DNA of 64,000 bases from IMG/VR virus record IMGVR_UViG_3300045988_062714, positions 36,078 to 100,077 of that record, one strand, 5' to 3'. This document shows, piece by piece, positions 1-62,707 of the stretch. Origin of the DNA: a virus. The translations under genes were made by a program, and so were the position numbers. The notes below the pieces were generated by a model, which had not been told where the DNA came from, did not search any database, and was given only the letters and a program-made list of their open reading frames with translations. How positions within the stretch are numbered: the first letter of the stretch is position 1; the number at the start of each line of letters is the position of its first letter.

Positions 1-2
1 AG

Positions 3-888
3 CGTTCTGGGCTTCCAGAATCCTATTTAGCGGCTATATGTGCAGACTTCTAGGAAAGACTTGGCAGATTTCCCCACCTTGATGAAATTAAGGGAGTAGA
101 TTCTTCAAATTATTTGACAGAAGAGCTAAATATTAAACGTGGGATTACGAAGGAATAGTAGATTTATAGGCTTACTGGGAAAAATGATTTACAATCTTCA
201 TAGGTATGGATAAATGATAACTTTAGAGACCTAGAAGTGGAGTTTTCTCCATTCTTTGGCGATATTAAGGTATATATTACTCATAGACCTATTACTCAAG
301 AAATCTCTACTCCTGTAAGTCATTCTAAAATAAGCGATACGCTAGTTGTAGAGGAGATTGTAAGTAAATTGCGGGACGTATATGGACTACCAGTAGAATC
401 TGTTATAACAGAGGATTTAAATGAATATAAAGAATCTCCAATTTTTTCGGAAGGTGGGATAACTTATGTAAATGCAGATGCTGTTACCCTAGATACCCCA
501 GTAATAGAGCTAATTCCTCTGTTAATTACTTCACTCCACGGTACAGAACTTTACGATAAGCTAATTAAAGATAACGAAAAAGAATTTTCTAAAGAATTAA
601 GAAATAGAATAATAGATAAAAGCGAAAAATTATAGTTTCTTCCAACCAACGTATAGTATGAGTTAATGTATAATATGAAGCGTGTATTAGACTCTATTCT
701 AATGGGGGAATCTAGTATTAGAGATATTAATGACGATATATTATTCAACAGTACTTTGAGGTCACTTGCTAGAATAGTTAACTCTAAAATCGATGTTTCT
801 AATTCTAATATACTAAGTCTGGATTTGGAAGAAAAGCACAAATAGTTAATGGAAGAAGGGAAGGTAACTGAATACTGTCATGTCTGAA
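3..888 (+). CDS. Late-module protein, N-terminally truncated by the window. Frame 3 is open only if TAG is sense. In-frame TAG at 51, 156, 159, 201 and 633; real stop TGA at 886-888.
   Basis: Frame 3 from base 3 to 888 has no TAA or TGA but five TAG codons. The stop overlaps the ATG of the next gene (ATGTCTGA). Confidence 0.5.
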
Positions 889-3800
889 TGTATATATAAA
901 TTTAAAGACCACGAATTTAGTAGTAAAAAGGAGTATGAAAACTTTCTACTACAAAAAGGAGACGAACTATACGAAATCTACGGGGATTTGGTATTTAATG
1001 CTTTAGATAACGTAATAACTTAGGAAGCTTTAAAGAAAGTTAAAGCAGAGGCTCAAAAGCATGTTAAAGCTTATGCTGAGGCTAAGAAATTATACTAGGA
1101 TGGAGAAGATAATCTAGAATTTAAACGCCCTTATATTGGTGTAACGGAATTTCTCGCGGATCTTACTAATTCTAAAGACTAGCTTTTAATGCCTTCTTTT
1201 AGAGAATTTGAATATTGGAGAAGACGTATTAAGGACTGGAAAGATCCCACTAAAGGATTTAATAATGACGAAATAGAACTATTCGGGAAGAATGTAACCG
1301 TTACCGATAATGTTAGCGAAGACTAGCTGAAGGAGTATTTAGATAACTTTGATAATAATTCAGAAACTACCAGTTAGACTTTAGGATTAATCAAACAAAT
1401 GAAGGATAAGTGGAAAGCACAGGGCGAATTAGGTACAGAGATCCATAGTATCTTAGAAATGCTTTTCAGAACTACAAAGGCTGGATTACTTATCACCCAG
1501 AGTGACAAAGCCATTAAGAGCTATATAAATTTACAGTATAAAGACAAAAAATTAAAGCAGGATACTATAAATAGTATAATTAAGTATGGAAAAAAGTTAC
1601 ACGAAGATTTAATTAATACATATGGACAGAATCTAACTTTCTTTCCTGAGTTTAAAGTAGTTACCAAGTTGGGATATGAGATCGAAGGGAAAGGAGATAC
1701 CATCTTAGGAAAGATAGACCTATTGGTAGTTGATGGGGATGGGTATGCTCATGTTATTGACTATAAGACTTCCCCTAAAGATTCTTTTGATTCTGCGAAA
1801 CAGAGAGCTTTTTGGTATCAGATGGGATTATATCATAGAATGATTGAGAATGCCGGAATTAGAGTTAACAGTCCATCACCTAAAGTTATTGTTGCTCCTA
1901 TAAAAATGCATAATTTCAGGTAGGAGGGAGACACTTGGGTATTTGATACTATTTCAGCTAGGTTAGGAGAGTCTACTTTGGAAGATATAACTACTAGAGC
2001 AACATTAAATGAGGTTGCTGCTAATATTGATGAGTTTATTCCTCCTACCCCAGTTATTGATTTAACTCCCAAGGAAATTGTAACTAATGTTTCGTAGGTA
2101 ATGGAGTATTCGTTTCCTAGTATAAATATGAGTAAGACTTGGGGAGACGAAGAAATAAAATCTATGATGGAAGGAAATATTGAGTAGGACCCAGAGTCTA
2201 AGAAATGGGTATTTAAAACTGAAAACTCTAAGATTCCATATACTGCTAACACTTAGGAAGAACTTTTTGAAAAAGTTAAAAAGTTCTATTAGGAAACTCT
2301 CCCAAAAAAACGCAGAGATATGGTAGCCTCTGTGGAAATGGCCTTGAAGAAAGGCATAAAAGAAAATACTAGTCTAGTTCCTTTACCAAAATAGGGAAGT
2401 ATTAATGTTAAACAAGGAGCTTCCGCAGAATGGTTCTAGAATCTAATGGGTAAGTACTGTAGGAACTATTATGAAATTATCGAAAATGAAGCAATAAAGG
2501 CTTATGGGGTTATTCTACTAAGAAACAAGCTCAACGGGTAGATTGATATATTGAAAATTACTACTGACAATCTAGATTATTCTCATAAGTTTAATAAATC
2601 TAGTAGAAGATAGTTATTAACTGGGGCATTTGAAGTAGATAGTGTATAGGCTAGGAAACCTGGTTCATTGGCTATGAAAGCTACCAATGGAAACATACAC
2701 TTGATGGAGACAATGGCAATCCTAAACTGTTTGCCTGAAATAACCTCTAAAGAAGGAATTATTGGAAATATACTTGTAGCTAATCCCCATTCTCTACAGG
2801 GTACAGCGGCATCAAACGAGGAATTAGTCTACAATTTCGGAGAGTTAGTATCCCACATTGATGGATTCTAGAATAATATTAAGAACATTAAATTTGCGAA
2901 TAAAGTAGAATTGGCTAAAAATAAGCTTAGAGAAGTATTAGAACTTGGTGCTAGCACACACTGGGAAGAGGATAAGTATAAGTTTGTAGGAAAGTATAAG
3001 GATTTATATACATAGTTGGATGAAGCAGTCTCTACTAATGACAGAAGAGATATTCTTAGAAAATTGGAGGCAATTAGGAAAAAATTAGAAGAGCCTAATG
3101 GAGGTTTAAGAACTGAGTAGATAACATCGTTAGACACTTATAGTGAGGAGGGAAATGAGTAGAGAACTTTATATAATCATATAATGTTAGCTATTGCTGA
3201 AATATAGGGAGTGCAGTTTAGACAGCAGACTAAAGACAACGAGAAGTATCTTGAGAGCATGAATATATTTAATAACGGGGTTAAATCTCTGATGTTAGAT
3301 AATCCAGGAAATCTAGATAATGCTACTCTAAATAAATTAACCTCTCTTATTACTGAAGCTTATTAGAACACTCGTGAGGATATGATGAGGGAGACTCCAA
3401 TTATTAGAGAGCTAGTAGAGGAACTAAAGAAAAGCAAAGGGTTTGGAAAGCTATCAGAAATGACTGTTGGCAATTAGGCAAGCTTGTATAGAAATATGAT
3501 AGAGTATAAAGATGGCGATATTCTATTTAAGAATCCCTGGAGCAACAAATTCTCTGGTACTGAACAGGAAAAGAAATTTCTTAAATATGCTCTTACTAAG
3601 ATAAATTAGGATAGGTTTGGAACTGATGAATTGGATGAAATGATAACTACAGAAGATGTTAGATTCTTTAGAGTTCCATTGGCTGTAGGAAGTTTATCCT
3701 CACAAGCTTCTTAGTTAGGAAGTATTGCTGAAGCATTCAAGAAGAGATTAGTTAGTAGATTGAGTCCAAAAAGATGGTGGGAAGAAACACAGAAATAGTT

Positions 3801-5589
3801 TCTAGGAGTATTCTCAGATGTCTAGAATCCCTCTTCTGAAGGAGAATTATTTCAGATGAATAATATGTTTGATGCTGGAAAGAATACAGAGTAGAGACTA
3901 GAGAAGATTGCAGAGAAGGGATATGATTATTTTGAGAATAATCTAGAAACTTTGTTATTAAAGCATATATTTGCTTACTCTACTAAGAAAAACGTTGATT
4001 TAATTATGCCAATGGCTAAAGCATCAATGATCCATGTAATCACTTAGGGATAGTTAACTAATAAAAAGTTTACTAATACTGCCAATTATATCACAGATTA
4101 TATAAAATCTCATATTAAAAACGAATCTTTAATTCCTGAAAATTAGTAGAATTTTAATGCTATTGTTAGCAGAATTAAAAATGCGGCATCATTCTTGGTG
4201 CTGGGATTTTCTCCTATTTAGTATGGCTACTAGATGATATAGGCTCTTTGGACCGATATAAGGCTAATGTATTAGGGAAGAGGAGATGAAAACACTCCTT
4301 TCACCTTTGAGAATTTTGCATTTGCTTTTAAAGAAGTTTATAGAGAACTATTTACTCTTGGAGGAAAGCCTACTAAATGTAGCCTATTAAATGATATGTT
4401 TGCTATTAACGATAGAGATATGAATACTTATGCAGAACAGACTAAATCAGATAGGTATGGAATATTCAATATGTCTAATATTGCTTTTCACTGCACCAGC
4501 AGACCAGATTATTACAGTAGAATGTCTATATTTGTCACTTAGTTAAAATAGGATGGCAGTTATGATGCCTATGAAAAAGTTGGAAACAAACTAGTATATG
4601 ATTGGAAAAAGGATAAACGCTTTGAAGCATATGCTAATGGAAGGACTGATGACCCCAAATATAACGAACAAAAAGGGTTATATTACGCTATAGCTGAGTA
4701 GTTAGAAATAGAACATGCTAAAAATGCTGACGGTAGTTTATTCTAGATCGGACAACCTTTACCTAAATCTCATACAAACCAGCAGATTGAGAGTTTCAAA
4801 TCGTTAGCTGATGATATTTATGGTTACTATGCCCACGAAAAAAAGGCAATGATTCATTCCTATACTCTCGGAGCCTTGTGGATGCAAATGAGAACTTTCT
4901 GGTCTGGTAAGAAAAACCAGTATTTGGGAGGATAGGGTATCAAATTAAAAGGACGCTATGCTCAGTAGAAGGATGCTAATGGTAATTTGTTATACCTCAC
5001 CGAAGAAAATGGCAGAATGATACCAACTACAGAAAATACTGGAGTTCCAGTAGTAAAGTGGGAGGGAGAATGGTAGGAAGGAATTATGCTAACCTTATCA
5101 TAGTTAATATCTGGAACCTTTCAAGGAGATGGATTAAAGCATACTTTCGAAGATATGTGGTATAATGAGGATGAGAAGCTTAGAAATCTCTATAGAGCCA
5201 ATTTACGACAAATCTAGTATGATTTACTAATGTTCTTTATTGTTGGTTCTCTTGTCACTGGAACATTAGCCGATTGGGATGATGAAAACATGAAGAAAGC
5301 TAAGGATTCTAGAGATATAGACGATGCAGCTATAGCAGCTGCTGCTCATATGGCATGCAAGATGGTAAGTTCGTCTTTTTTAGACCTTAACTTTATTGAA
5401 TCTATTGGAGGACCACTAGTTTATTGGCAACCAATGTCATTTAGTTATTTTTCTAGAAGAGCCGAAGATATATATAATATAGCATTTGGGGATACTTCTT
5501 TTACTGATGCTCTTATTAGAATGTCTTCATTAACAAATAATACTAAGATATTTTGGAATACTTTACTTCCTGAAAGGGAGTAGGAATAA
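877..5589 (+). CDS. Giant late protein of about 1570 aa, probably virion-associated, with about 45 in-frame TAG codons read as sense. Contains a PD-(D/E)XK-like segment (IDLLVVDGDGYAHVIDYKTS).
   Basis: I read frame 1 codon by codon from 877 to 5589. It has zero TAA or TGA and many TAG, and terminates at TAA 5587-5589 just before a hairpin terminator. It joins track ORFs 1399-1923, 2668-2871 and 5230-5583 in one frame. Confidence 0.6.
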
Positions 5590-15954: not shown

Positions 15955-16740
15955 TCATATAAGCTTCTCTATATAGTCTCTCCCTTCTCCAGTAAAGATT
16001 GGAATCTCATCGTCAATATACCAATAACCTCTGAGAGTTTGGTTCATAGTCTGATGATACTTCTTGATACAACAGCTTCCTCTTCTAAACTTAGTAGGAT
16101 AATCATTCCAATTAATTCCCTTCTCTTGGAAAAGTAGTTCTTGAATCTGATTAGTATTTAATCCTTCTAACTGCTTATGAGAAAAGTAAGCTTGCCCAAC
16201 AGATTGAATACTATTTCGTGTAGCGTCTTGCTGTCTCCATAATATACAATTAGTTACCTCTTCCTTGGGGATATTAAAGCATCTTGCATCAAATACCGCA
16301 CCTGATTTAATAGCACGTATGTAGGATTTAGCCAGATTTTCGTCTCCTAATTCACCTTTCCAAGAAAGTTCGTTAACTTGCACTTGGAATTGTCTATTAA
16401 AGATAAAGGTGGCCATAGATGCAGCTACACTACAGATTTTTTGTACTTCGTAATCAAACCAAGCATCTGTAGTAAGTTTTTGGTAGTCTATCAGAACTAG
16501 CGTAATTTCATCAGATTGTGTATATCCCAAGACACATCCCTGAATGTTTTCACACAGATATTTCATAGTTTCCTGCATGGCTTTGGACATACACTCATCA
16601 AAGGGCTTAACAAAACCCTTTGTGAATGTGTGAAATGCTTTTCCATCTAATCGGATGATTACAGGAGTTCTTCTCATAAGTGATGTCTTAGAACGCGCTT
16701 CATAATAAAGCTTCATTCTATCTCCAAATTCGTCTTTCAT
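15955..16740 (-). CDS. Thg1-like protein (tRNA-His guanylyltransferase family 3'-5' nucleotidyltransferase), a likely tRNA 5'-end repair enzyme.
   Basis: RLDGKAFHTF...KPFDE...LGYTQSDEITLVL matches the Thg1/TLP catalytic motifs (RxDGRxFHxF, FExPxD, YxQSDE). Confidence 0.6.
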   Translation of the reverse strand: MKDEFGDRMKLYYEARSKTSLMRRTPVIIRLDGKAFHTFTKGFVKPFDECMSKAMQETMKYLCENIQGCVLGYTQSDEITLVLIDYQKLTTDAWFDYEVQKICSVAASMATFIFNRQFQVQVNELSWKGELGDENLAKSYIRAIKSGAVFDARCFNIPKEEVTNCILWRQQDATRNSIQSVGQAYFSHKQLEGLNTNQIQELLFQEKGINWNDYPTKFRRGSCCIKKYHQTMNQTLRGYWYIDDEIPIFTGEGRDYIEKLI

Positions 16741-17794: not shown

Positions 17795-18730
17795 TTAAAA
17801 CTTTCCGTCATTAGGTTGTAAACAAGTAATGCCTAAGTCTCTCCACATTCTTACACATTTTGTACTATCTTCGAGTACGATAGGGACATAATACTTGTCC
17901 TTTACATATTGCTCGTATAACTTTTTCTTACAGTCTGGTCCTGCTGAATAATCTCCTTTAGGTCGCATAAGAACCATGTCTGGACATAGTAGGTGCGCAT
18001 CAAGCCATTTCTCAGTAGCTACGCGAGATTCCGGAGTATCTTCTCTACCAGTAAGAATGATTAACTCTGCATTGTGGAAATTACAATAAGCTCTTACTAA
18101 GCCAACTATTTCATTAATTGGTTCATCTTTTTCCATACCCTCGGCAGCACCTTCTCCATAGAAGGGACGACCACTAGTATTTAAGCACAACGTAGCATCC
18201 ATATCACATATAATAGCTACTGGCAAATCGGGATTCTGTTGACTTGCCTTAGCCTTCATTGCCATAATATCCTCGTGAATGATAAAGTTTCTATAGCGTC
18301 TCCATGTGTCTTTAATAACCTTTGCTCCTATAGGATTTAGTCGAGATGCGTCTCGACGAATACATTCTTCAACAGGAGTCCAGAAATCTTTAAACTCTAC
18401 TTCATACTTCCATCCATACTCACCTCGTACTCCTCTATTAAATAGATCAACCTCAGATTCTATTTCGGCAACAGTCTTGGGATTTAGGTTCATATTGTCT
18501 ATTACAATATCATACTTACGGGCCATAGAATCAAGCAAGAATCTATCATAAAGACATTTAACTAATTTCTCTCTGCTAGGAATCCAATAATCTCCTAGCA
18601 TATTACGAATATCGTCATTATTAAATCTCACTCTATGTTCTGGGTCTTCGTGACACCATTGTTTAGCCCATGTACTCTTTCCAGAGCCTTGTATTCCTCT
18701 ACATATAATTATTTTTCTTGTTTCCATCAA
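17795..18730 (-). CDS. pnk: Polynucleotide 5'-kinase/3'-phosphatase (T4 Pnk-like).
   Basis: N-terminal P-loop CRGIQGSGKSTWAK. C-terminal HAD motif IICDMDATL (DxDxT). Confidence 0.65.
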   Translation of the reverse strand: MMETRKIIICRGIQGSGKSTWAKQWCHEDPEHRVRFNNDDIRNMLGDYWIPSREKLVKCLYDRFLLDSMARKYDIVIDNMNLNPKTVAEIESEVDLFNRGVRGEYGWKYEVEFKDFWTPVEECIRRDASRLNPIGAKVIKDTWRRYRNFIIHEDIMAMKAKASQQNPDLPVAIICDMDATLCLNTSGRPFYGEGAAEGMEKDEPINEIVGLVRAYCNFHNAELIILTGREDTPESRVATEKWLDAHLLCPDMVLMRPKGDYSAGPDCKKKLYEQYVKDKYYVPIVLEDSTKCVRMWRDLGITCLQPNDGKF

Positions 18731-19477: not shown

Positions 19478-20284
19478 TTATTTTTCACTAGTTGGCTTAA
19501 GCCATAAATTAGTGTTCTTAAAAATGTAATCTCTTAAATCAGTGAGTTCAGATAACCACCCTAGAGTTAAAGATGAGTTACACTTAAAGCACTTTGTCAG
19601 TTCTTCCCTTATTCTCTCCTCAGATACTACTGGCATTTTGTCTAAATAGTCATAAGCCTTCATAGCCTGCCACATATCTTCAGATACCCGTAGTCTCTTG
19701 GTAATAGAGAATCTTATGCCTCTGAGAATCCTTAAAGGGTCATCATCAAAGGTTATAATAGGAGGTAATGGAGTCCTAAGAAGTTTCTCCTTAATATCTT
19801 TAAGACCTCCAAAATAATCAATGATTTCTCCAGTATCAGGGTCTTTAGCTAAAGCATTAACAGTAAAATCCCTACGTAATAAATCATCATAGAGATTTCC
19901 TGGCTCAACTATTGGAGTTCTAGTACCTGGAATGTACCCTACCTCCTTACGAGCCATTACAAAATCAGCCACTCCTTGATACTTATAGCCCTCCGGAAAC
20001 CTAGCTCGAATTGTATAGCAGTCTGGAGTTACTAAGAAGATTTCAAACTTTTCTGCTATTAAATGTTCCCATAATAACTGAAACATATCACAGGTAGTCA
20101 AGTTTTCCTTTAAAGCTTCCTCGCATGGAACTGCTACATAATCAATATCCTTATTAGTAAGGCCGAGAAGTTCATCCCGTACCTTACCTCCTACTTCGTA
20201 AAACTTAAACATCTCCATTTTCAAATAATTCTCTAATATCATAGCAGTCAATATAGGGAGTTCCACTTGCAGTTTCTTTTTCAC
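19478..20284 (-). CDS. cca: tRNA nucleotidyltransferase (CCA-adding enzyme) or poly(A) polymerase head-domain protein.
   Basis: GGKVRDELLG followed by a DIDYV (DxD) motif. Confidence 0.6.
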   Translation of the reverse strand: MKKKLQVELPILTAMILENYLKMEMFKFYEVGGKVRDELLGLTNKDIDYVAVPCEEALKENLTTCDMFQLLWEHLIAEKFEIFLVTPDCYTIRARFPEGYKYQGVADFVMARKEVGYIPGTRTPIVEPGNLYDDLLRRDFTVNALAKDPDTGEIIDYFGGLKDIKEKLLRTPLPPIITFDDDPLRILRGIRFSITKRLRVSEDMWQAMKAYDYLDKMPVVSEERIREELTKCFKCNSSLTLGWLSELTDLRDYIFKNTNLWLKPTSEK

Positions 20285-20708
20285 TTGTGAAGAAGTCTAC
20301 AAAGTCCTCCCATGCTCCATCATCCTTTAGAATAAAATCAGCAAGAGGGTATATTGCCATCTCTTCTAACTGCCAGGAGAGATGATACTCTTCAGCAGGA
20401 ACCCATTGGGTAAGATACTCCCCACAGTGGTCAACTACATACTGAATACAATGGTCTAGCCAGTCATTGCCTGCAACCTTACAATGATAATCGTAAAGTA
20501 TTGGATACTTCTCTGCTAAGAATAGTAAGAAGTTTTTATCGGCTTCTCGCGAGAAGTTACAATAGTCAGTAAAAGACTCTCCAGCTTCTCCTTCCCATAT
20601 GCTAATAAGACGTGCTACATCTTTAGCCTTCAAATCCTCTCTATTGTAAAACCTTGTCTTCTCCATAGATTTCTCCGCTATATTCATTCCATTCTTCGTC
20701 ATCTTCAC
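20205..20708 (-). CDS. Hypothetical protein.
   Basis: 167-aa ORF. Confidence 0.35.
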   Translation of the reverse strand: MKMTKNGMNIAEKSMEKTRFYNREDLKAKDVARLISIWEGEAGESFTDYCNFSREADKNFLLFLAEKYPILYDYHCKVAGNDWLDHCIQYVVDHCGEYLTQWVPAEEYHLSWQLEEMAIYPLADFILKDDGAWEDFVDFFTSEKETASGTPYIDCYDIRELFENGDV

Positions 20709-22600: not shown

Positions 22601-24790
22601 TTAATGAATCCAATGATCTGATACAGTAACATCTGCACCTAAAAATACATTAGGACAGAATGGTTTCCCTCCATCTATCATACATTTAACTAATACCTTA
22701 GATACTTCATCGGCAATAGATTCTGGGCATTCTAGATTAAACTCGTCATGGACTGGAACACACATCTTAACAATGTTAAGAAGCTTATGCTCCTTAATCC
22801 AATTAAATAGTTTAATAGAGGAAAGTTTAAAACACATTGCTCCCCTGTTCTGAATACGATAATTGATAGACTGCTTTTCAGATGCTGCTTTTCTCTGAAA
22901 ATATCTCTTAACGTCTTGGACGGTATCACAGCCAGGAGAATCTCTCTTCATTTCTCTGTAATAATCCCAGAACTCTGGGTCATTGAACTTCTTAGAAATC
23001 CGCCAGAGGTCATCAATATCATATATATGTGCTCTATGCTTAGTTATAGGATTTAACAAAATATAACCATCCCTCATTACCGCCATTCTACAATAATCTT
23101 GATACTGTTTTACTCCGGGGAAACCCTTCATAAAGTTATCATAGATTTCTTGAGCTTCTGACAACGGTAGACCCTTGTTATTAGCTATAGTATTTGCATC
23201 GCCTCCATAATTGATGGCAAATTCAATACCTTTAGCATCCTGTCTTTGGGCATGATATAATTTAGCTATATCCCCTATAGGGCAGTCTCTAGGGATAATA
23301 TTCGGATAAGACATTTTAGCTACTAGACTATGAACATCCCCACAGCCATGTTCAAATAGTTCAATCATAGCCTCGTCCTTAGATACAGAAGCAATGATTC
23401 TACTTTCTTGAGACTGATAATCCGCAGAAATCCACTTATTACCTTTCTCTGCAGTAAAACATGCTCTAGTTTCCTTGTCATGAGGTAAATTCTGTAGATT
23501 AAGTTTATATACTCCTCCTCCAGAACTTACTCTAGCTGTATCAGCTCCTAGTGAGTGAAAATCTACATGGATTCTTCCAGTCTTAGGGTTAATTGCCTTC
23601 AACCAGTTTTCCCCATAAGTAGAAACCACTTTTGCAGCTTCCTGATATTTTAGATAGATAGGAATAATCGGGAAATCTTTAGCCTGTGGAGCTAGAAGCT
23701 TAGCTTCAACAGATTTCTTTTCCTTCTTAGTTTGCTTATCAAATGTCTTGACTTTAATTCCTAATAATTCAAATAACTTGGTAACTTGTTGAGAGCTACT
23801 CCAGTTAATTGTGCACTTAGGCTTGGTATCAAAGCCATTAAATAAATCACCTTGATTATCTACCTTAGTAAATTGACTTATTACTCTTTTTCTATAAGCT
23901 TTAACCTTTCCGTCTGGTGTTTCAAGGTCTTCCTGAGGGCATCGGACATATTTCTCTTTTAGCAGTCTAGCTACTTCATCCTCTATTTCCATAAGATTAT
24001 AAAATTCCAGTTCTGGGTATTTAATATCCCATCCATCATGCTCATGTCTCTTTTCAGAATCCCATTGAACTACCCAATCGTTTAGTTCTTGCTCAGCATC
24101 CTTCAGCTTAACAAGGTCTTTAGCCATCTTATTTCTCCATTTTACGACATCTAGATGAACACCGCAATGCTTGAAATAAGCAAGACTCTTGATAAACTCA
24201 CACTCAAGTTTCATAGCAAGATTTAATTCTTGCTTAGCAAGCTCTATTTCTTGTTTTTCTTTAATGTCTTCTAGCCACATTACGTCTCCTGCAGCATAGA
24301 CTACTACATCTTCAGTAAGACCATCATTTATAATCTTACCTCGAACAGATTTATCTAAGTCATAGTTTAGATAATTCCATGCAGCTGCTTTCAAACTCAT
24401 TTCTCTTATATTAGCTGGATAGCCTAACCAAAGTAATTTCTCGGCAATCATACCATCCCAGATATAATTTGGCCAAATATCCTGCACATATAAAAACCCT
24501 AAGTCAAACATTAAATTCCATCCAAGAAATACTCTATCAGACTCAAAATAATTCTTTATCTCAGCTTTCTCTTCTGCTGACATAGTTGTCCAGTCAAAGA
24601 CAACTTGATTTTCTTTGCAACCTAGTTGCACAGTTAGTAACTCCTTAGTATGCGCATCTAATCCCTTAGTTTCAGTATCAAATTGAACTAAAGAAAGAGG
24701 CAACAATATTTTCATTGCCTCCTCGAAACTTACTTCTTTGTATTTTGTAGACACAAATAAAGTTTTATTCCGACTTACTAAATAAATCAT
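22601..24790 (-). CDS. polA: Family A DNA polymerase with an N-terminal 3'-5' exonuclease domain.
   Basis: Exo I FDTETKGLD. Motif A SADYQSQESRII. Motif B RQDAKGIEFAINYGG. Motif C PVHDE. Confidence 0.8.
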   Translation of the reverse strand: MIYLVSRNKTLFVSTKYKEVSFEEAMKILLPLSLVQFDTETKGLDAHTKELLTVQLGCKENQVVFDWTTMSAEEKAEIKNYFESDRVFLGWNLMFDLGFLYVQDIWPNYIWDGMIAEKLLWLGYPANIREMSLKAAAWNYLNYDLDKSVRGKIINDGLTEDVVVYAAGDVMWLEDIKEKQEIELAKQELNLAMKLECEFIKSLAYFKHCGVHLDVVKWRNKMAKDLVKLKDAEQELNDWVVQWDSEKRHEHDGWDIKYPELEFYNLMEIEDEVARLLKEKYVRCPQEDLETPDGKVKAYRKRVISQFTKVDNQGDLFNGFDTKPKCTINWSSSQQVTKLFELLGIKVKTFDKQTKKEKKSVEAKLLAPQAKDFPIIPIYLKYQEAAKVVSTYGENWLKAINPKTGRIHVDFHSLGADTARVSSGGGVYKLNLQNLPHDKETRACFTAEKGNKWISADYQSQESRIIASVSKDEAMIELFEHGCGDVHSLVAKMSYPNIIPRDCPIGDIAKLYHAQRQDAKGIEFAINYGGDANTIANNKGLPLSEAQEIYDNFMKGFPGVKQYQDYCRMAVMRDGYILLNPITKHRAHIYDIDDLWRISKKFNDPEFWDYYREMKRDSPGCDTVQDVKRYFQRKAASEKQSINYRIQNRGAMCFKLSSIKLFNWIKEHKLLNIVKMCVPVHDEFNLECPESIADEVSKVLVKCMIDGGKPFCPNVFLGADVTVSDHWIH

Positions 24791-25322
24791 GTTGATAGAT
24801 TTCGATGTTATTTATTTCAACATCTTTGGATTTGAACCTATTATAAATAGCTTCTTCAACTGCACCTTTAATATCATCTTCATCTATTACTTCTACATCT
24901 ACGAATAACCCTAATTCAACTCCTACTTCTACCTTAACCTTAGTAGGTAGTGGTTCATTGTAAGGTGCTCTAGGGTCATTAGCTGCACCCATTGGATAGT
25001 TATCTAAAGTCGTCATATGGGTCATAAGTTAAAGGATCAACTACTTCCCAATCATCTGCGTTTATATCTTCACCATCAAAAGGATAGTAAGTACAAGTCC
25101 TATCAGAAAAGTCATACATGATAAACTGGTCATGGTATGTAATACCTACACCGTAACTACACATAAGAGCTTTCATATCATCAGGGATAGAACGCATAGC
25201 AGGTATTCCATCTCCAGAAATCATTGCAGGTATCTGCATAAATATTACCAGATTGCTCTGAAATACTTTCCTTCTTACTACTTTTCCCTCTTGTAACTTA
25301 GACAATATTTCTCCGAATTTCA

Positions 25323-26168
25323 TTACATTAAATTTTTAAGTTGATTAGAAAATCTACGTCTTAATTTAGCTAAAGCTCCCTCTTTCATCTGTCTTATTCT
25401 TTCTCCTCCAACACCGTACATATCAGCTATAATTTTAGGATTGACAGGAGCCATTCCTATACCAAATAACATACAGATTAAATCGTGCTCTCTAATTGTT
25501 AATTTAGAAAGTAGATTCTCTAGCTCTTTAGTTACATAGCTTTTATTTACTTGTTCATCAAGGGGGTCTTCACCATCTGGAATAATATCACAGACTTGAC
25601 TGTTTTCTTCATCTCCTCCTATGAAATCGTCCACAGAAACTAACTTATTAGAAAACTGTGCTAGATAGTCAATTTGCTCCCTAGGAATATCAGTCATTTC
25701 TGATATTTCTTCGGAACTTGGATTTCTATCATGCGATTGCAAGAATTTATTAGTTGCATCGAGTATACTTATTACCAATAATTGCTGAGACATTGGAAGA
25801 CGAATTTCTCGTGCTTGCCAATATATAGAATTATAGATACTTTGTCTAATCCACCATACAGCATATGACAAGAATGTCACTCCTCTTTCTGGGTCAAACT
25901 TATCAATAGCTTTCATTAATCCTTCATTTCCACTAGAGATTAAATCCATTAAAGGGATACCTCTATTCTGAAATTGCTTGGCGATAGTCACAACAAACCT
26001 AAGATTTGATTTTATGACTTGTTCTCTAGCAACATCATCTCCTTTTTGAGCCTCACAAATGAGACGAGTTACCTCAGTACTATCTAAAATCTTATATTTA
26101 GATATATCCCTGAGATAACTCGTCAACAGTGAGTCAGAACGGTCTGTGAAAATGATTTTTTTACTCAC
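25323..26168 (-). CDS. Sigma-70 family RNA polymerase sigma factor.
   Basis: Regions 2.1-2.4 (VAREQVIKSNLRFVVTIA..., DLISSGNEGLMKAIDKFDPERG, FLSYAVWWIRQSI) and a region 4 helix-turn-helix. Confidence 0.8.
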   Translation of the reverse strand: MSKKIIFTDRSDSLLTSYLRDISKYKILDSTEVTRLICEAQKGDDVAREQVIKSNLRFVVTIAKQFQNRGIPLMDLISSGNEGLMKAIDKFDPERGVTFLSYAVWWIRQSIYNSIYWQAREIRLPMSQQLLVISILDATNKFLQSHDRNPSSEEISEMTDIPREQIDYLAQFSNKLVSVDDFIGGDEENSQVCDIIPDGEDPLDEQVNKSYVTKELENLLSKLTIREHDLICMLFGIGMAPVNPKIIADMYGVGGERIRQMKEGALAKLRRRFSNQLKNLM

Positions 26169-26403
26169 CTTCTTTTACAACCTGGGCTTCTGAAATTTCA
26201 TCTTTAGGAGCATTAAGACCAATACGAATAGATAGTACTGATATATATGCTTCCATTGCTTTTAGTTGGGCGACTAGTAAGTCTTTATTAAGGTTGTCAA
26301 CCTCCTTGAACTTATCCCCTAGGATAAAATCTCTGAGCTTAACAGCACGTTCATTAACTTCGTTAAATTCTCCCAACATTCTTTGAAATACAGCTTGTTC
26401 CAT
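26161..26403 (-). CDS. Hypothetical protein adjacent to the sigma factor (possible regulator).
   Basis: 80-aa ORF. Its start overlaps the sigma gene stop. Confidence 0.35.
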   Translation of the reverse strand: MEQAVFQRMLGEFNEVNERAVKLRDFILGDKFKEVDNLNKDLLVAQLKAMEAYISVLSIRIGLNAPKDEISEAQVVKEGE

Positions 26404-26541
26404 TTGATTAATTTTTAATATTTACAAATGAATCTAGACCCGTAGGTTTCAAGGAAGTCCTTTTCTTCCTGTATTATCTCATAAATTCCAACTATTACTA
26501 ATGACAATACTAATCCTCCAAATATATAGACCAGAATAGTA

Positions 26542-27237
26542 TTAAATATCCAAATATAAAGGTTCATAATTAATATCGTAAGAGTCATCGAGAATAGATA
26601 CATTGGCGGTCTTTGTCTCGCCTGCATCTAGTAGCCAATGATTTCCTTCGTGGATATGTCCACAAAAAGCATACTTCGGTTTCTTATCTATAATAGCCTT
26701 AGCCAAGACCTCATTTCCTGCATTTATGGGAGTAGAACTCCACCTACCAGGCGGAATCATACCACAATCATTTAATGCGGGAGCATCATGACTAATCAAT
26801 ATATCGCAATTTCCTGGGATATGTGAATAGATTTCTTCCAGTTTCTCATCAGAATACATGAAAGCCCAATTACCAAATTCATGGCAGGCCGGAGTTCCAT
26901 AAATTCTATATACCTTTCCTTCATCACTTAGATAGTCTAGATGAGAATTATCAAGAAATTCAGCTTTTCCTTCTGTAGGAAATTTAATCACAGAGTTATT
27001 CCAAAGAAAATCCCTATTTTCAAAAACAAAATCATGGTTTCCAGCTGTAAATACTACCTTCTTACACGGCAATGATTTAATCCAATCTGCAAATACAGTC
27101 TTCAACCACTTCTCACACTGTGGCTTGTTTCTCTGCATATAAAGAGGAACAATATCTCCACATATTAAAACAAGTTCACATGGCTCTATATAATCAATTA
27201 GAAATCCATGTAAATCACTTATTGCACATATTTTCAT
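26542..27237 (-). CDS. Calcineurin-like metallophosphoesterase.
   Basis: Motifs DLHG, GDIV, GNHD and GHIH. Confidence 0.6.
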   Translation of the reverse strand: MKICAISDLHGFLIDYIEPCELVLICGDIVPLYMQRNKPQCEKWLKTVFADWIKSLPCKKVVFTAGNHDFVFENRDFLWNNSVIKFPTEGKAEFLDNSHLDYLSDEGKVYRIYGTPACHEFGNWAFMYSDEKLEEIYSHIPGNCDILISHDAPALNDCGMIPPGRWSSTPINAGNEVLAKAIIDKKPKYAFCGHIHEGNHWLLDAGETKTANVSILDDSYDINYEPLYLDI

Positions 27238-28332: not shown

Positions 28333-29700
28333 TCATGCTTCGTCTTCAATATTAGTTTCACCTTTGTCAAGTTCCTTTCCTTCCTTATCTAGGAATTTAA
28401 AACATTTAAGCTTAAATGCCTCAGATTTCATATTCTCAATCTTAATAACTATTCCCTCATGAGGTACTTTGTTATCGCAAGATGGCGAAGTTCGCTCCAT
28501 ATAGAATCTAGCGTCGTTAGCTAATTTCTCCATGAAATTTTCGTTCCAGTGCTCAGCTTCGTTAAGTTCTGGATATAAGCTATTGGCAGTACCATAATAC
28601 CACTCTTCTACTGGGATAAGACCTACCTTAGCGCACCATTGTTGAACTTCCCTAGCACTAAATTCGTGAACTACACCGTCAACATTAGTTAATGTTACAC
28701 GATATATTCGCACTTTAAAGTGCTTTTCGTGAGTATACTGTTCTCCTTCTTTAGGAGGCATACAGCCATAGTCATAATTCTTTTGGATATAGCCACCATT
28801 AGGTAAGAAACCAACGATTTCATAATATGCAGTCATACCTTTAGACAAGCAAGGTTTAACTATTTTATCAGCTTCCGCCCAAACGTCACACCCGTAGAAT
28901 CCAGGAGTAACATTCTTATTATAGAACTGATTCTTTATTACCGTTCTAGAAGCATACAAATAGTCATACTTATTGAACTCTTCTCCAGTAAGCCATTTAG
29001 CGATTTTCTGTTTCCAGTTCAGATCTTGTTTACAAAGCACATAAGCTGATATACCAGAAGTTCCGTGAATTTTCTCAGTAATACTGATTAAATCATTTGG
29101 ATGAATTACATTAGGACATTTCTTAATAAGAGTTGTGTCGTAGTGGAATCTAAATTGTTCATCAATGACCTTGCTGATTCCTTTGACCTTCTTCGTTTGG
29201 TTGTTACGTGGTGTGCCACCTTGTCCTTGCTGTCTCTTAGGGATGTACTTCTTGTTAATCCAAAATTCTTTGCCTTCATGTTCTACAATATCAAATTCAG
29301 TTCCTACTTCAATTTCTATCTCTTTATTAGTTACGGACATTATGTAGTTTTGGAACTGTATAATGGGCATAATAAAACCTTCCGACAGTTCATTTTTAAG
29401 TCTAATAGCTTTGACTCTACCATTGTCTTCAAACATACCAGTTTGTTCTGGGTCGTTGTTCAACTCCTTATGTCTATACAAGTTGCAATACCTTAGAAAA
29501 TCAGGATTAATGCAACAAGCAGTTGGGAAATAAACATACAATCCTGGCTGGGAATCAATACCAGTAATAATGTTAAATCCATCGATGGTGCAACACTTAA
29601 GTCTAGTTACTTCTGGGTTACTGTGTTGTCTAAAATTCTTAATTTCTACAATCTTTGCCAAATAATTGACATTGGCTTTCTTACTTTTTGATAACTTCAT
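28333..29700 (-). CDS. rnl: RNA ligase (Rnl2-like covalent nucleotidyltransferase).
   Basis: Motif I KIHGTSG, motif IV HEGIVIK, motif V FKLK. Confidence 0.55.
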   Translation of the reverse strand: MKLSKSKKANVNYLAKIVEIKNFRQHSNPEVTRLKCCTIDGFNIITGIDSQPGLYVYFPTACCINPDFLRYCNLYRHKELNNDPEQTGMFEDNGRVKAIRLKNELSEGFIMPIIQFQNYIMSVTNKEIEIEVGTEFDIVEHEGKEFWINKKYIPKRQQGQGGTPRNNQTKKVKGISKVIDEQFRFHYDTTLIKKCPNVIHPNDLISITEKIHGTSGISAYVLCKQDLNWKQKIAKWLTGEEFNKYDYLYASRTVIKNQFYNKNVTPGFYGCDVWAEADKIVKPCLSKGMTAYYEIVGFLPNGGYIQKNYDYGCMPPKEGEQYTHEKHFKVRIYRVTLTNVDGVVHEFSAREVQQWCAKVGLIPVEEWYYGTANSLYPELNEAEHWNENFMEKLANDARFYMERTSPSCDNKVPHEGIVIKIENMKSEAFKLKCFKFLDKEGKELDKGETNIEDEA

Positions 29701-34267: not shown

Positions 34268-34849
34268 TCATACTCCAGTATGTCCAAATCCTCCTTCTCC
34301 TCGTTCAGTAGAAGGTAATTCTTCGACAACTTCCCATTCTATAGTTTCATGCTTAGCAATAACTATTTGGGCAATTCTTTCTCCATCAGTAATTCTAACT
34401 GGGACATTAGAAGTGTTCACTAATACAACTCCAATCTCTCCTCTGTAGTCGGCGTCAATGGTTCCAGGTGAATTAAGGACAGTAAGTCCCAATTTTAATG
34501 CAAGACCGCTTCGTGGTCGAACTTGCGCCTCGTAACCCTTAGGTAAAGCTATAAACAATCCAGTCGGAATCAAACATCTACCTCCGGGCTTTATTTCAAT
34601 AGTAGAAGCAACGGGAATACTAGGAACTCTTCTATCAGTAAGATTTCCTTCCTTGTCTACCACAAATGGACCATTTGGATCTTCAATTTTACTAATAGCT
34701 ACAACATCAGCATCGAAAAAGAATTTCTCAGGCTTATTGTCTACTAACTTAATTCTACTAAAGTCTCCTCTAATATCCATACCTGCTGATAAGGGAGTTT
34801 CATACTGAGGAAGTTGATGTCTTGATTTATTAATTATGAGTACTTTCAT
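34268..34849 (-). CDS. dut: dUTPase / dCTP deaminase family enzyme.
   Basis: RSGLALK and [17 protein letters not shown] motifs. Confidence 0.6.
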
Positions 34850-35384
34850 GTAATAAAATAAATTCAGTTAAATAAAATCTTGCATCTATAACACACTTAG
34901 GAACTAGTCCTTCTAGGCTTAAATTAGATCTTAGGGCATCTCTTACAACAGTAGCCGATATACCTTCTTCTACCTGTTCTCTTGCCATGAGAGTCATTGA
35001 TATATAACCCTTCAGCATAAACTTTGGAAACCATGTTGTAATAATTTCGTATCCATCGCTATAGTAGATATTAAAATGGGACTCTTTTATAATACTAACT
35101 ATGTTAGCATATAAATAGAATCCCCAATCCTGAGAGTTATCAGACTCATCAGTCAAATCATTAAGAGGCTGAATGATACATCTACTAAGTAAACCTTCGT
35201 CCTCTAAGGCAGTTTCTAGTAATTTTATCCTAACCTTTATAGGAATAGGATTACGCTTGTTTACTTTATCAGCACTACCAACTAACAAAAGAACCTTATC
35301 GTTCTCTGAACAAGCTTTTTTAATTAAAGCTAGGTGCCCATTGTGAATGGGCTGAAACCTAGCTAAAATAACTCCATATTTCAT
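34830..35384 (-). CDS. NMN adenylyltransferase-like nucleotidyltransferase (NadM/NadR-type).
   Basis: [12 protein letters not shown] (HxGH motif in the GRFQPxHxGH context). Confidence 0.55.
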
Positions 35385-40989: not shown

Positions 40990-41061
40990 TTAATTGTTAA
41001 TTAGTTGTTACACTTCCATAATTAAATTACGTTTAATATCTATTAAATATTGCTTATCTCA

Positions 41062-41100
41062 AAATAAAAAAGGAAGGCCACCCTTAGGCAGTCTTCCTTT
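41062..41100 (-). terminator. Rho-independent terminator of gene 41123-41680.
   Basis: Stem AAGGAAGGCC/GGC..CTTCCTT followed on the - strand by TTTTTTATTTT. Confidence 0.55.
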
Positions 41101-41122
41101 TAAACGTATATCTTTCAAGAAA

Positions 41123-55466: not shown

Positions 55467-55887
55467 CTACTACATATTTTAAGATTTCATAACTTTCTTC
55501 TAGACCTGCCCTATCATCTAGGAGGATATTATAATAGGGTTTCTCAGAATTAGGAAATACAGGACTTTCATTTGTATATAGCTCAAAGTCTTCATCCAGA
55601 CCTAATAATTTAGCAGTTTTCATCTGTTTAATACATAGCTCTTGAAGATTTGTTTCACAGGTAAACAATATCAAATGAAATCCCAATTTATAACACTTAT
55701 TAAGTAAATTTATGACTTCACTATAATCTCCTCCATTATTATGGTAATCGAAAATAGTATTATCAAAATCGAAAGCGACTATTAGCTTTCCGTATTTATG
55801 ATACTCTTCTAATAGTCGTTTCTTGCAAGCTTCTTTCCCAAAAGGATGATTAAAGTCCATGGTCAATTCTTTGTCTGATTTCTTCAA
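55432..55887 (-). CDS. HAD-superfamily phosphatase.
   Basis: IVAFDFDNTIFDY (DxDxT). Confidence 0.5.
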   Translation of the reverse strand: MKKSDKELTMDFNHPFGKEACKKRLLEEYHKYGKLIVAFDFDNTIFDYHNNGGDYSEVINLLNKCYKLGFHLILFTCETNLQELCIKQMKTAKLLGLDEDFELYTNESPVFPNSEKPYYNILLDDRAGLEESYEILKYVVDEIKLNQQGNQ

Positions 55888-62614: not shown

Positions 62615-62655
62615 TTTTCTTAATTTAAATTAGTTAATAATCATTTTATCTATCA

Positions 62656-62707
62656 AAAAAAAGAGTGGTTCCAGTATCTGTGCTTCACCAGATACTTTCC
62701 CCACTCC
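62656..62707 (-). terminator. Rho-independent terminator on the - strand.
   Basis: Bipartite stem GAGTGG..CCAGTATCTG/CAGATACT..CCACTC followed on the - strand by U8. Confidence 0.5.

What the first reader, a model, noticed from the sequence alone, without database searches (positions are those of the whole stretch)
25323..26403. Phage-encoded full-length sigma-70 family factor with a small downstream partner ORF
The 281-aa protein has clear sigma regions 2 and 4. An 80-aa ORF overlaps its stop codon, which may be a co-regulator or anti-sigma-like partner. A phage's own sigma factor alongside recoded late genes implies two layers of late-gene control, one transcriptional and one translational.
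Basis: partly seen in the sequence, partly recalled or inferred. Interest (0 to 1): 0.5.

Follow-up and report, generated by a model that had tools for sequence, protein, structure and literature searches.

The report
Phage sigma factor flanked by immune sponges
A roughly 186-kb crAss-like gut phage carries its own full-length sigma factor, closest to the main sigma of Bacteroidota hosts; the two small genes touching it look like decoys against bacterial immune signals, not sigma partners.

Summary
The sigma factor is real. It is a 281-aa ORF on the minus strand (26168 to 25323) with sigma-70 regions 1.2, 2, 3 and 4, so it is not ECF-type. It is under strong purifying selection. Its nearest cellular relatives are the roughly 287-aa primary sigma factors of Bacteroidota, at 36-40% identity.

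The 80-aa ORF lies upstream, and its stop overlaps the sigma start by 8 nt. It belongs to the Sequestin family (PF21825), a published sponge for the Thoeris signal 3'cADPR, and keeps all four pocket residues. The ORF that overlaps the sigma stop is a 107-aa Tad2-like sponge. Neither resembles an anti-sigma factor. More distant phages have sigma next to DNA polymerase A without these genes.

The context fits the crAss-like Zeta group. The sigma sits in a standard-code replication block. The opposite-strand genes need TAG read-through. Two suppressor tRNAs lie upstream, outside the window.

Across 13 lineages, one conserved Bacteroidetes-type -33/-7 promoter heads the structural block. No repeated late-promoter motif was found. 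Whether the phage sigma or the host sigma reads that promoter is untested.

This is a new member of a known kind and is moderately interesting.

The parts
25323..26168 (-). Sigma factor gene: 281 aa, GTG start at 26168, TAA stop at 25323-25325. No in-frame TAG.
   Evidence: ORF listed. Pfam r2, r3 and r4. NCBIfam best matches are RpoS/RpoD types, all below their equivalog cut-offs. PDB SigA 8e-47. AF2 model has pLDDT 85, and its best folds are SigA and sigma-S in holoenzymes. pN/pS is 0.02-0.3.
25824..26015 (-). Sigma region 2 (aa 52-115): core binding, -10 recognition and DNA melting.
   Evidence: Pfam PF04542, 1.3e-17. Y430, W433, W434, R436 and Q437 (E. coli numbering) are kept, while T440 is Y and R441 is N.
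25566..25766 (-). Sigma region 3 (aa 135-201).
   Evidence: Pfam PF04539, 2.5e-8. H455 is S and E458 is L, so the extended -10 contacts of sigma-70 are not kept.
25359..25514 (-). Sigma region 4 (aa 219-270): helix-turn-helix that reads the upstream promoter element.
   Evidence: Pfam PF04545, 6.5e-9. E585, R586, R588 and Q589 are kept, while T583 and R584 are both G.
26161..26403 (-). 80-aa Sequestin-family ORF (PF21825) immediately upstream of sigma. Its stop overlaps the sigma start by 8 nt.
   Evidence: Pfam 1.2e-16 and phrog_774. The family is named Sequestin. A published study describes it as a 3'cADPR sponge against type I Thoeris. R8, E12, Q46 and R60 are invariant in three lineages.
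25000..25323 (-). 107-aa Tad2-like ORF immediately downstream of sigma. Its ATG overlaps the sigma TAA by 1 nt.
   Evidence: Pfam PF11195, 7.1e-9, full length. PDB 8wjd SptTad2, 6.7e-6. Present only where sigma is at least 77% identical.
24765..25025 (-). 86-aa ORF of unknown function between the Tad2-like gene and PolA.
   Evidence: ORF. No Pfam or PHROG hit.
22601..24790 (-). DNA polymerase A (729 aa), the conserved downstream neighbour of sigma.
   Evidence: Pfam DNA_pol_A_exo1 and DNA_pol_A on the same gene in L001. Sigma lies next to or near PolA in five diverged relatives.
26542..27237 (-). Metallophosphoesterase (231 aa), the conserved upstream neighbour.
   Evidence: Pfam PF00149, 3e-12. 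Also found upstream of sigma in L085, MT835492.1 and L007.
26415..26567 (-). Small hydrophobic ORF of about 50 aa that fills the apparent 138-nt gap upstream of the Sequestin gene. As a result, no obvious promoter gap precedes the sigma unit.
   Evidence: ORF. A homologous ORF sits at the same place in the 77% relative L007.
1..5589 (+). 3' end of the TAG-recoded block on the opposite strand. It converges on the standard-code block.
   Evidence: ORFs 3-887 and 868-5589 exist only with TAG read-through (7 and 45 in-frame TAGs).

Best explanation
The 281-aa gene encodes a working phage sigma factor of the primary type, closest to the compact sigma-A of Bacteroidota.

Shown:
- It lies in the standard-code replication block, so it can be translated before TAG suppression is established.

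Inferred mechanism:
- By analogy with phi14:2, that block would be transcribed by the virion RNA polymerase.
- The sigma binds host core RNA polymerase through its conserved regions 2.1-2.2 and 4.
- It then directs the polymerase to phage promoters of the Bacteroidetes -33/-7 type.
- The most likely target is the one conserved promoter at the head of the TAG-recoded structural block.
- Late proteins would then need both this transcription step and the phage suppressor tRNA(CUA).

Flanking genes:
- The small ORFs on either side are not sigma partners.
- They are a Sequestin-family sponge and a Tad2-like sponge, which soak up Thoeris-type immune signals.
- They are co-expressed with sigma through overlapping stops and starts.
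For: **Sigma identity**
- Complete sigma architecture, with group 1/2 relatives as best matches.
- End-to-end alignment with named Bacteroidota RpoD/SigA of about 287 aa. It shares the short N-terminus and the helix F(I/L)SYAVWWIRQSI.
- Melting residues and DNA-reading residues are kept: Y430, W433, W434, R436, Q437, E585, R586, R588, Q589.
- Strong purifying selection: 106 synonymous against 9 non-synonymous differences versus L327.

**Distribution**
- More than 100 near-identical copies on contigs of up to 186-193 kb.
- 580 homologous stretches in viral contigs.
- Sigma lies beside or near PolA in five diverged lineages.

**Genome programme**
- TAG recoding affects only the opposite block.
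- Two tRNA(CUA) genes sit in the standard-code block.
- In 13 lineages the structural block starts with an invariant TTG, then 20 nt, then TA...T. This matches the -33 TTTG and -7 TAnnTTTG layout.

**Sponges**
-.
Against: - No experiment or covariation links this sigma to that promoter. Host sigma-A could read it equally well.
- Only one such promoter was found in about 125 kb examined. About 68 kb of the late block was not examined.
- No shared motif appears in the intergenic regions of the standard-code block.
- The canonical TTTG-N19-21-TAnnTTTG pattern is not enriched.
- The timing of sigma expression is inferred only from its position and its genetic code.
- phi14:2 promoters were transcribed in vitro without any phage sigma. 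A phage sigma is therefore not generally needed in crAss-like phages.
- Sequestin-sigma adjacency holds in all 32 viral loci where sigma is at least 51% identical. A functional link is therefore not strictly excluded.
Confidence: 0.6

Rival explanations
1. The sigma is functional but does not drive late genes. Either it drives a middle class of phage genes, or it competes with host sigma-A for core polymerase and so shuts down host transcription. Host sigma-A would then read the structural-block promoter.
For: - The promoter has the host-type -33/-7 layout.
- phi14:2 middle promoters work with a primary-sigma holoenzyme and no phage factor.
- Only one such promoter was found.
Against: - The fifth position of the -7 element is A or C, not the consensus T, in all 13 lineages.
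- The sigma differs from Bacteroidota RpoD at DNA-contact positions 440, 441, 583 and 584. This fits a shifted specificity.
- No candidate middle-promoter motif was found in the 92-kb stretch that holds the standard-code block.
Confidence: 0.25
2. One reading: the 80-aa ORF is a co-regulator or anti-sigma-like partner of the sigma factor.
For: - An 8-nt stop/start overlap implies co-translation.
- The pair is adjacent in all 32 viral loci where sigma is at least 51% identical, and in L088 where sigma is 40% identical.
Against: - It is a clear member of the Sequestin sponge family, with all four ligand-pocket residues invariant.
- The family is widespread in phages, including T4-like phages.
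- It is absent beside sigma in 48 of 48 more distant viral loci, and in L085, L087 and MT835492.1.
- No Pfam anti-sigma family hit.
Confidence: 0.05
3. The sigma is itself part of an anti-defence cassette, for example a decoy. This would explain why it sits between two sponge genes. It would have no role in the phage's own transcription.
For: - It is sandwiched between Sequestin and Tad2-like genes.
- One NCBIfam hit is to the sigma-like MzaA of the MZA defence system. This only reflects shared sigma domains.
Against: - In more distant phages the sigma keeps its place between the metallophosphoesterase or ligase and PolA without any sponge. The sponges are therefore later additions around a core gene.
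- All promoter-melting and DNA-reading residues are conserved. A decoy would not need them.
Confidence: 0.05
4. The gene is a decaying relic of a captured host rpoD.
For: It scores far below the NCBIfam equivalog cut-offs: 216 bits against 378.7.
Against: - pN/pS is 0.02-0.08 among close strains.
- The ORF is intact in hundreds of contigs.
- The best bacterial genome match is only 39% identical, so there was no recent capture.
Confidence: 0.02

Closest known systems
Bacteroidota primary sigma factor (sigma-ABfr / RpoD-SigA, about 287 aa)
   Same: - Similar length, with no region 1.1.
- Same short N-terminal segment and the same region 2.3-2.4 helix (SYAVWWIRQSI).
- E585, R586, R588 and Q589 are kept.
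- It aligns end to end.
- The one conserved phage promoter has the -33 TTG and -7 TA layout that this sigma reads.
   Different: - Only 36-40% identical.
- Encoded by a phage.
- Y/N instead of L/Q at positions 440/441.
- G-G instead of T-R at 583/584.
- S instead of N at position 455 and L instead of mostly G at 458.
- Not an ortholog by NCBIfam cut-offs.
Transcription scheme of crAss-like phage phi14:2 (Drobysheva et al., bioRxiv 10.1101/2020.03.07.982082)
   Same: - A giant ORF with a DxDxD motif lies at the end of the late-strand block.
- The phi14:2 paper reports a three-block motif at middle promoters. The promoter here likewise has two sigma-type blocks followed by a third.
   Different: - phi14:2 is described as using host RNA polymerase without a phage sigma.
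- This phage adds its own sigma-A-like factor.
- The Yutin 2021 survey of the Zeta group never mentions sigma.
- A 2026 mouse virome paper lists an RNAP sigma factor annotation as enriched in Zeta genomes.
Classical phage sigma cascades (T4 gp55; SPO1 gp28 and gp33/34); from my own knowledge
   Same: A sigma is made from earlier genes and redirects host core polymerase to later phage promoters. Like T4 gp55, the gene sits among replication genes.
   Different: Those factors are small or highly diverged; gp55 has only a region-2-like part. This one is a complete primary-type sigma with regions 1.2 to 4.2.
Other phage-encoded RpoD/RpoS-like sigmas (cyanophages, Bacillus and jumbo phages)
   Same: tblastn finds 243 phage records with homologs at 28-38% identity. 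Several are annotated rpoD or group 2 sigma.
   Different: Those phages have different hosts and belong to different lineages. None is reported together with a virion RNA polymerase and stop-codon recoding.
Sequestin (PF21825) and Tad2 (PF11195) anti-Thoeris sponges
   Same: - Family membership by Pfam, above the cut-offs.
- Sequestin pocket residues are kept.
- Small size.
- The Tad2-like ORF matches SptTad2 over its full length.
   Different: Ligand binding is untested here. I did not find this arrangement, with the two sponges tightly bracketing a sigma gene, described elsewhere.

Membership tests
Sigma-70 family, group 1/2-like (primary type) | Region 2 domain | tested here: met
   PF04542, 63.8 bits against a cut-off of 24.
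Sigma-70 family, group 1/2-like (primary type) | Region 3 domain, which ECF sigmas lack | tested here: met
   PF04539, 34.3 bits against a cut-off of 25.3.
Sigma-70 family, group 1/2-like (primary type) | Region 4 helix-turn-helix | tested here: met
   PF04545, 35.6 bits against 24.1. E585, R586, R588 and Q589 are kept.
Sigma-70 family, group 1/2-like (primary type) | Region 1.2 | tested here: met
   Residues 16-45 align with SigA region 1.2 and with Bacteroidota RpoD. The Pfam r1_2 model did not fire on this protein, but it did on the L088 homolog.
Sigma-70 family, group 1/2-like (primary type) | Aromatic and basic residues for -10 melting and recognition (Y430, W433, W434, R436, Q437) | tested here: met
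Sigma-70 family, group 1/2-like (primary type) | Overall fold of a holoenzyme-bound sigma | tested here: met
   AF2 model with pLDDT 85.4. Foldseek top hits are SigA and sigma-S chains, E 1e-17 to 1e-14, over about 270 columns.
Sigma-70 family, group 1/2-like (primary type) | Binds core RNA polymerase and confers promoter-specific initiation | not testable with these tools
   Needs biochemistry.
RpoD / RpoS orthologs (NCBIfam equivalogs) | Score above the curated equivalog cut-off | tested here: not met
   The best score is 216 bits against 378.7 (TIGR02394). All others are also below cut-off.
ECF (group 4) sigma factors | Only regions 2 and 4, with no region 3 or 1.2 | tested here: not met
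   Regions 3 and 1.2 are present. The 'ECF sigma factor' name that one nr record gives a 99% homolog is a mislabel.
Sequestin (PF21825) sponges, for the 80-aa ORF | Profile match above the gathering score | tested here: met
   60.7 bits against 24.8.
Sequestin (PF21825) sponges, for the 80-aa ORF | Pocket residues equivalent to R8, E12, Q47 and R61 of SequestinA | tested here: met
   R8, E12, Q46 and R60 are present and invariant in three lineages. The 77% relative L007 has N at position 8, a position whose alanine mutant stayed active in the paper.
Sequestin (PF21825) sponges, for the 80-aa ORF | Homodimer that binds 3'cADPR and blocks type I Thoeris | not testable with these tools
   No multimer or ligand modelling is available here.
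Tad2 (PF11195), for the 107-aa ORF | Profile match above the cut-off and similarity to a solved Tad2 | tested here: met
   36.5 bits against 25, covering profile positions 1-73 of 73. PDB 8wjd SptTad2, 6.7e-6, residues 2-96.
Anti-sigma factors, for the 80-aa ORF | Similarity to any known anti-sigma family, and co-occurrence with the sigma across the family | tested here: not met
   The only Pfam hit is PF21825. The ORF is absent beside sigma in 48 of 48 viral loci where sigma is 44% identical or less.
crAss-like phages (Crassvirales), Zeta-like group | TerL related to crAss-like phages | tested here: met
   The only named tblastn hits are Crassvirales TerL at about 25% identity. PolA shows DNA similarity to cr111_1 and IAS virus.
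crAss-like phages (Crassvirales), Zeta-like group | Giant ORF with a DxDxD RNA polymerase motif | tested here: inconclusive
   A 3004-aa ORF carries GSDYDIDT. It has no PHROG hit and no annotated tblastn hit.
crAss-like phages (Crassvirales), Zeta-like group | 145-192 kb genome, stop-codon recoding in late genes, introns in core genes (Yutin 2021) | tested here: met
   Contigs of 185-193 kb. TAG recoding. TerL split by a LAGLIDADG ORF. Criteria taken.

The most novel reading that the evidence does not exclude
Zeta-type crAss-like phages run a three-step expression programme.
1. The packaged virion RNA polymerase transcribes the standard-code block.
2. A phage sigma-A-like factor with shifted specificity takes over host core polymerase. 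The shift shows as A or C at position 5 of the -7 element and as loss of R584. It keeps the roughly 100-kb structural operon away from host sigma-A.
3. Suppressor tRNA(CUA) unlocks translation of that operon.

The tight coupling of Sequestin, sigma and Tad2 would ensure that immune-signal sponges accumulate together with the switch to late transcription.
Probability: 0.25. Interest if true: 0.6.

Novelty: new member of a known kind. Interest (0 to 1): 0.4.

Why it matters
crAss-like phages are the most abundant viruses of the human gut. This lineage appears in hundreds of metagenome contigs.

The published model for the group uses a virion polymerase for early genes and unmodified host polymerase for later genes. 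A conserved, selected phage sigma of the host's own primary type would add a takeover step to that model.

It would also give a concrete handle for testing how transcription and stop-codon recoding are coordinated: one sigma, one conserved promoter and two suppressor tRNAs.

The practical correction matters too. The two small ORFs that touch the sigma gene are probably anti-Thoeris sponges. They should not be annotated as sigma regulators.

Tried and rejected
1. Canonical Bacteroides promoter scan. TTTG-N18-22-TAnnTTTG gave 0 matches in the window against about 2 expected. TAnnTTTG alone gave 68 against 71.5 expected. With one mismatch allowed over 101 kb, there were 26 and 27 hits per strand against about 30 in shuffles. 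Not enriched.
2. The sigma-70 consensus scan around the operon found fewer sites than shuffles did.
3. De novo motif search:
   - k-mer counts and my own EM motif finder were run on up to 49 intergenic pieces.
   - The first hit was the tRNA T-arm, which exposed unmasked tRNAs.
   - After masking, only roughly 7-bit AT-rich motifs remained.
4. The 10-mer TTCATTTGTA, shared by the region before Sequestin and the late promoter, is not enriched: 15 matches against 11.7 expected.
5. TAGATAA, the third block of the late promoter, is barely enriched: 31 against 22. It has only one further intergenic copy, at window position 62652.
6. The apparent 138-nt promoter gap upstream of Sequestin turned out to hold a conserved small membrane ORF.
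7. The supposed gaps before the 529-aa and 736-aa late genes are conserved as coding sequence, not as promoters.
8. Identifying the 3004-aa ORF as a crAss RNA polymerase by PHROGs or tblastn failed.
9. The genome-contig scan did not return Bacteroidota rpoD because the word patterns were too specific to the phage. The 'Pedobacter' hit L012 is a 367-aa SigA of the long type seen in Firmicutes.
10. Pairing sigma variants with promoter variants gave only two lineages with near-identical promoters. No covariation test was possible.
11. The look-up of encoding contigs for P0271 found nothing.
Full report
**What is at the coordinates**

Both ORFs are on the minus strand.
- The sigma ORF runs from a GTG at 26168 to a TAA at 25325-25323 and encodes 281 aa.
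- The 80-aa ORF runs from 26403 to 26161. It is therefore upstream of sigma, and its stop overlaps the sigma start by 8 nt.
- The ORF that overlaps the sigma stop by 1 nt (TAATG) is a third gene of 107 aa, at 25323-25000.
- Next come an 86-aa ORF and DNA polymerase A (24790-22601).
- A metallophosphoesterase lies upstream (27237-26542).

**The sigma factor is real and complete**

- Pfam finds regions 2, 3 and 4, all above the curated cut-offs.
- PHROGs files it under 'RNA polymerase sigma factor' at 1e-56.
- The NCBIfam best matches are RpoS and RpoD models. All are far below the equivalog cut-offs, so it is not an ortholog of either.
- Solved SigA and sigma-S chains align from region 1.2 to the C-terminus at E 1e-47 to 1e-42.
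- An AlphaFold model built on 34 family members has mean pLDDT 85. Its best Foldseek matches are SigA and sigma-S chains from initiation complexes.
- It has region 3 and region 1.2, so it is not an ECF sigma. One public record gives a 99% identical copy that name.
- Against a 97% identical relative there are 106 synonymous and 9 non-synonymous differences. pN/pS is about 0.02, and 0.07-0.3 for more distant relatives.

**Where the sigma comes from**

- More than 100 copies at 93-100% identity exist in gut metagenomes, on contigs of up to 186-193 kb.
- An identical copy sits on a 186,052-bp contig that was deposited as a 'Bacteroides sp.' MAG.
- In a search against 50%-identity cluster representatives, the next cluster is 58% identical. 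After it come many 273-290-aa sigmas at 35-45%.
- Part of these lie on 100-216-kb metagenome contigs and look viral.
- Part carry the N-terminus MRQLKITKSITNRES. These include clusters that NCBI names RpoD/SigA of Taibaiella, Chitinophagaceae and Saprospiraceae, all Bacteroidota.
- The phage protein aligns with these end to end. It shares their short N-terminus, the lack of region 1.1 and the helix F(I/L)SYAVWWIRQSI.
- The best bacterial genome hits reach only 35-39%. There was no recent capture.

The lineage is old and phage-borne, and it is most like the compact primary sigma of Bacteroidota. IMG/VR holds at least 580 homologous stretches.

**Residues that read DNA** (E. coli sigma-70 numbering)

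| Status | Positions |
|---|---|
| Kept | Y430, W433, W434, R436, Q437, E585, R586, R588, Q589 |
| Changed | T440 to Y, R441 to N, H455 to S, E458 to L, T583 to G, R584 to G |

- Bacteroidota RpoD has L/Q at 440/441, mostly N at 455, and T-R at 583/584 in 7 of 11 sequences sampled.
- Only 9 of 80 viral homologs have R at 584.
- Conservation at 430-434 among the viral loci is partly forced, because the search pattern included those residues.
- The pattern fits a working sigma whose promoter preference may be shifted. I cannot derive the preference from sequence.

**The two small neighbours are sponge-family genes**

- The 80-aa ORF matches Pfam PF21825 at 1.2e-16.
- The newer Pfam name for that family is Sequestin.
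- A 2025 preprint shows that PF21825 proteins bind 3'cADPR and cancel type I Thoeris defence. In SequestinA the pocket residues are R8, E12, Q47 and R61.
- This protein has R8, E12, Q46 and R60. All four are invariant in the homologs that sit upstream of sigma in two other lineages.
- The 107-aa ORF matches Tad2-like PF11195 over the whole profile. It also matches the solved SptTad2 at 6.7e-6.
- Neither ORF hits any anti-sigma family.

**Synteny across relatives**

- In viral contigs, a Sequestin gene abuts the sigma start in all 32 loci where sigma is at least 51% identical. It does so in none of the 48 loci where sigma is 44% identical or less. One 40% relative from a metagenome is an exception (L088).
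- The Tad2-like gene is present only where sigma is at least 77% identical. It evolves fast: it is 67-69% identical where sigma is 93-97% identical.
- More distant phages have metallophosphoesterase or ligase, then sigma, then PolA, with no sponge.

I read sigma as a core gene of the replication module. The sponges are accessory genes that settled around it in one sub-lineage. A direct functional link between Sequestin and sigma is not excluded by synteny alone, but nothing else supports it.

**Genome context**

- The minus-strand block of the window encodes replication and nucleotide-metabolism genes in the standard code. These include NrdD, helicases, primase, ligases and thymidylate synthase.
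- TAG serves as a true stop in about five of these genes.
- The plus strand at 1-5589 is readable only with TAG read-through.
- I walked outwards on near-identical IMG/VR contigs. This showed:
  - The standard-code block runs on for about another 30 kb. It holds 25 tRNA genes, two of them with anticodon CTA.
  - The structural block starts with a 304-aa nuclease-like gene, then a TerL split by a LAGLIDADG ORF. Genes become TAG-rich from there.
  - Just left of the window lies a 3004-aa ORF with 103 TAGs and the motif GSDYDIDT. This resembles the DFDxD motif named for the crAss virion RNA polymerase. Homology could not be shown.
- The only named TerL relatives are Crassvirales, at about 25% identity.
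- Size, recoding, introns and the deep TerL branch match the Zeta group of Yutin et al. 2021. That paper never mentions a sigma factor.
- A 2026 mouse virome paper lists an 'RNAP sigma factor' annotation as enriched in Zeta genomes.

**Promoters**

- No canonical host-type promoter is enriched, and no shared motif appears in the standard-code block.
- That fits phi14:2, where early transcripts made by the virion polymerase had no common upstream motif.
- The apparent gap in front of the Sequestin gene encodes a small conserved membrane ORF. The sigma unit therefore has no visible promoter of its own.
- One convincing element exists upstream of the first structural-block gene. I aligned 13 lineages whose downstream protein is 100% down to 50% identical.
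  - The only invariant columns are TTG, then TA 20 nt later, then a T four bases on.
  - The consensus is A(T/C)TTG(T/G), about 19-20 nt, then TA(t/c)(a/t)(A/C)TTG.
- This is the Bacteroidetes layout of -33 TTTG and -7 TAnnTTTG. The difference is A or C at the fifth position of the -7 element in every lineage.
- A third block, TAGATAA, follows at a variable distance.
- An alternative reading takes TTGAAA as -35 and GATAAA as -10. It fits the close lineages but fails in L298 and L303, where the spacing collapses.
- Only one such promoter was found in about 125 kb. About 68 kb of the late block was not seen.

**Most likely mechanism**

Shown:
- A selected, complete sigma of the Bacteroidota primary type sits in the standard-code block.
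- The suppressor tRNAs sit in the same block.
- A conserved sigma-A-type promoter heads the recoded block.
- The flanking genes belong to sponge families.

Inferred:
- The virion polymerase transcribes the standard-code block, by analogy with phi14:2.
- The sigma binds host core polymerase and reads the structural-block promoter.
- Late proteins then also need TAG suppression.

I put 0.6 on this overall. I put about 0.85 on 'functional sigma that uses host core polymerase', and less on the specific late target. The main rival, at 0.25, is that host sigma-A reads that promoter and the phage sigma serves another gene class or host shut-off.

**Verdict**

- Phage sigma factors are a known kind. 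This is a new, well-conserved member in an abundant and little-studied crAss-like lineage.
- The 'partner ORF' idea is replaced by a better-supported reading: the two small neighbours belong to anti-Thoeris sponge families.
- Interest is moderate.

Noticed in passing
window 868-5589 (+): A 1573-aa ORF exists only if 45 in-frame TAGs are read through. It carries a PD-(D/E)XK-like nuclease motif (IDLLVVDGDGYAHVIDYKTS) and a weak exonuclease PHROG hit.
   Followed up: partly
L093:939-9953 (just left of the window start, on a 98% identical contig): A 3004-aa ORF with 103 in-frame TAGs and the motif GSDYDIDT. This resembles the DFDxD catalytic motif of crAss virion RNA polymerases. PHROGs and annotated phage records gave no hit.
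   Followed up: partly
L171, L136 and L095 (0-28 kb beyond window position 64000, contig IMGVR_UViG_3300045988_065177): An array of 25 tRNA genes in the standard-code block. Two have anticodon CTA (UAG suppressors), one on each strand. The window itself has no tRNA.
   Followed up: partly
window 55850-57400 (-) and 34830-35384 (-): Nicotinamide phosphoribosyltransferase (phrog_448, 2e-182) plus a CTP_transf-like ORF. From my own knowledge these resemble the Nampt and Nmnat of a phage NAD+ salvage pair. With the two sponges, they suggest heavy investment against NAD-depleting and Thoeris-type defence.
   Followed up: no
window 28333-29700, 17795-18730, 15955-16740, 19478-20284 (all -): A set that looks like tRNA repair and maturation: RNA ligase, PNKP-like kinase/phosphatase, Thg1-like enzyme and a PolyA_pol-family nucleotidyltransferase, possibly CCA-adding.
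   Followed up: no
window 20285-20640 (-): A roughly 350-nt segment that is absent from the 97% relative L001. It holds an ORF with 5 in-frame TAGs inside the otherwise standard-code block. Unexplained.
   Followed up: partly
window 26415-26567 (-): A small hydrophobic ORF of about 50 aa overlaps the end of the metallophosphoesterase gene. It is conserved at the same place in the 77% relative L007.
   Followed up: partly
window 62615-63088 (-): A 474-nt non-coding stretch.
- Its RNA fold is much more stable than shuffles (z = -4.75).
- It ends in a strong hairpin followed by U8.
- A TAGATAAA motif follows, which is conserved in relatives with 74-78% protein identity.
- There is no Rfam match.

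It may be a non-coding RNA plus a terminator and a restart site.
   Followed up: partly
L264:7891-11422 (structural block, outside the window): The terminase large subunit is split into 342-aa and 473-aa parts by a 303-aa LAGLIDADG endonuclease ORF. This fits an intron, as described for Zeta-group genomes.
   Followed up: no
L264:4355-4415 (head of the structural block, outside the window): A conserved three-block promoter-like element: ATTTGT, 19 nt, TATACTTGAAAAG, about 14 nt, TAGATAAAT. TTG, then 20 nt, then TA...T are invariant across 13 lineages.
   Followed up: yes
window 40990-41122 (-): An intergenic region with a GC-rich hairpin followed by a T-run (aaggaagactgcctaagggtggccttccttttttatttt). 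It looks like an intrinsic terminator inside the long minus-strand block.
   Followed up: no
L085:10803-14144 and L087:6455-8817: In more distant sigma-bearing relatives, the PolA gene next to sigma is split. In L085 the split is by a LAGLIDADG-type ORF.
   Followed up: no
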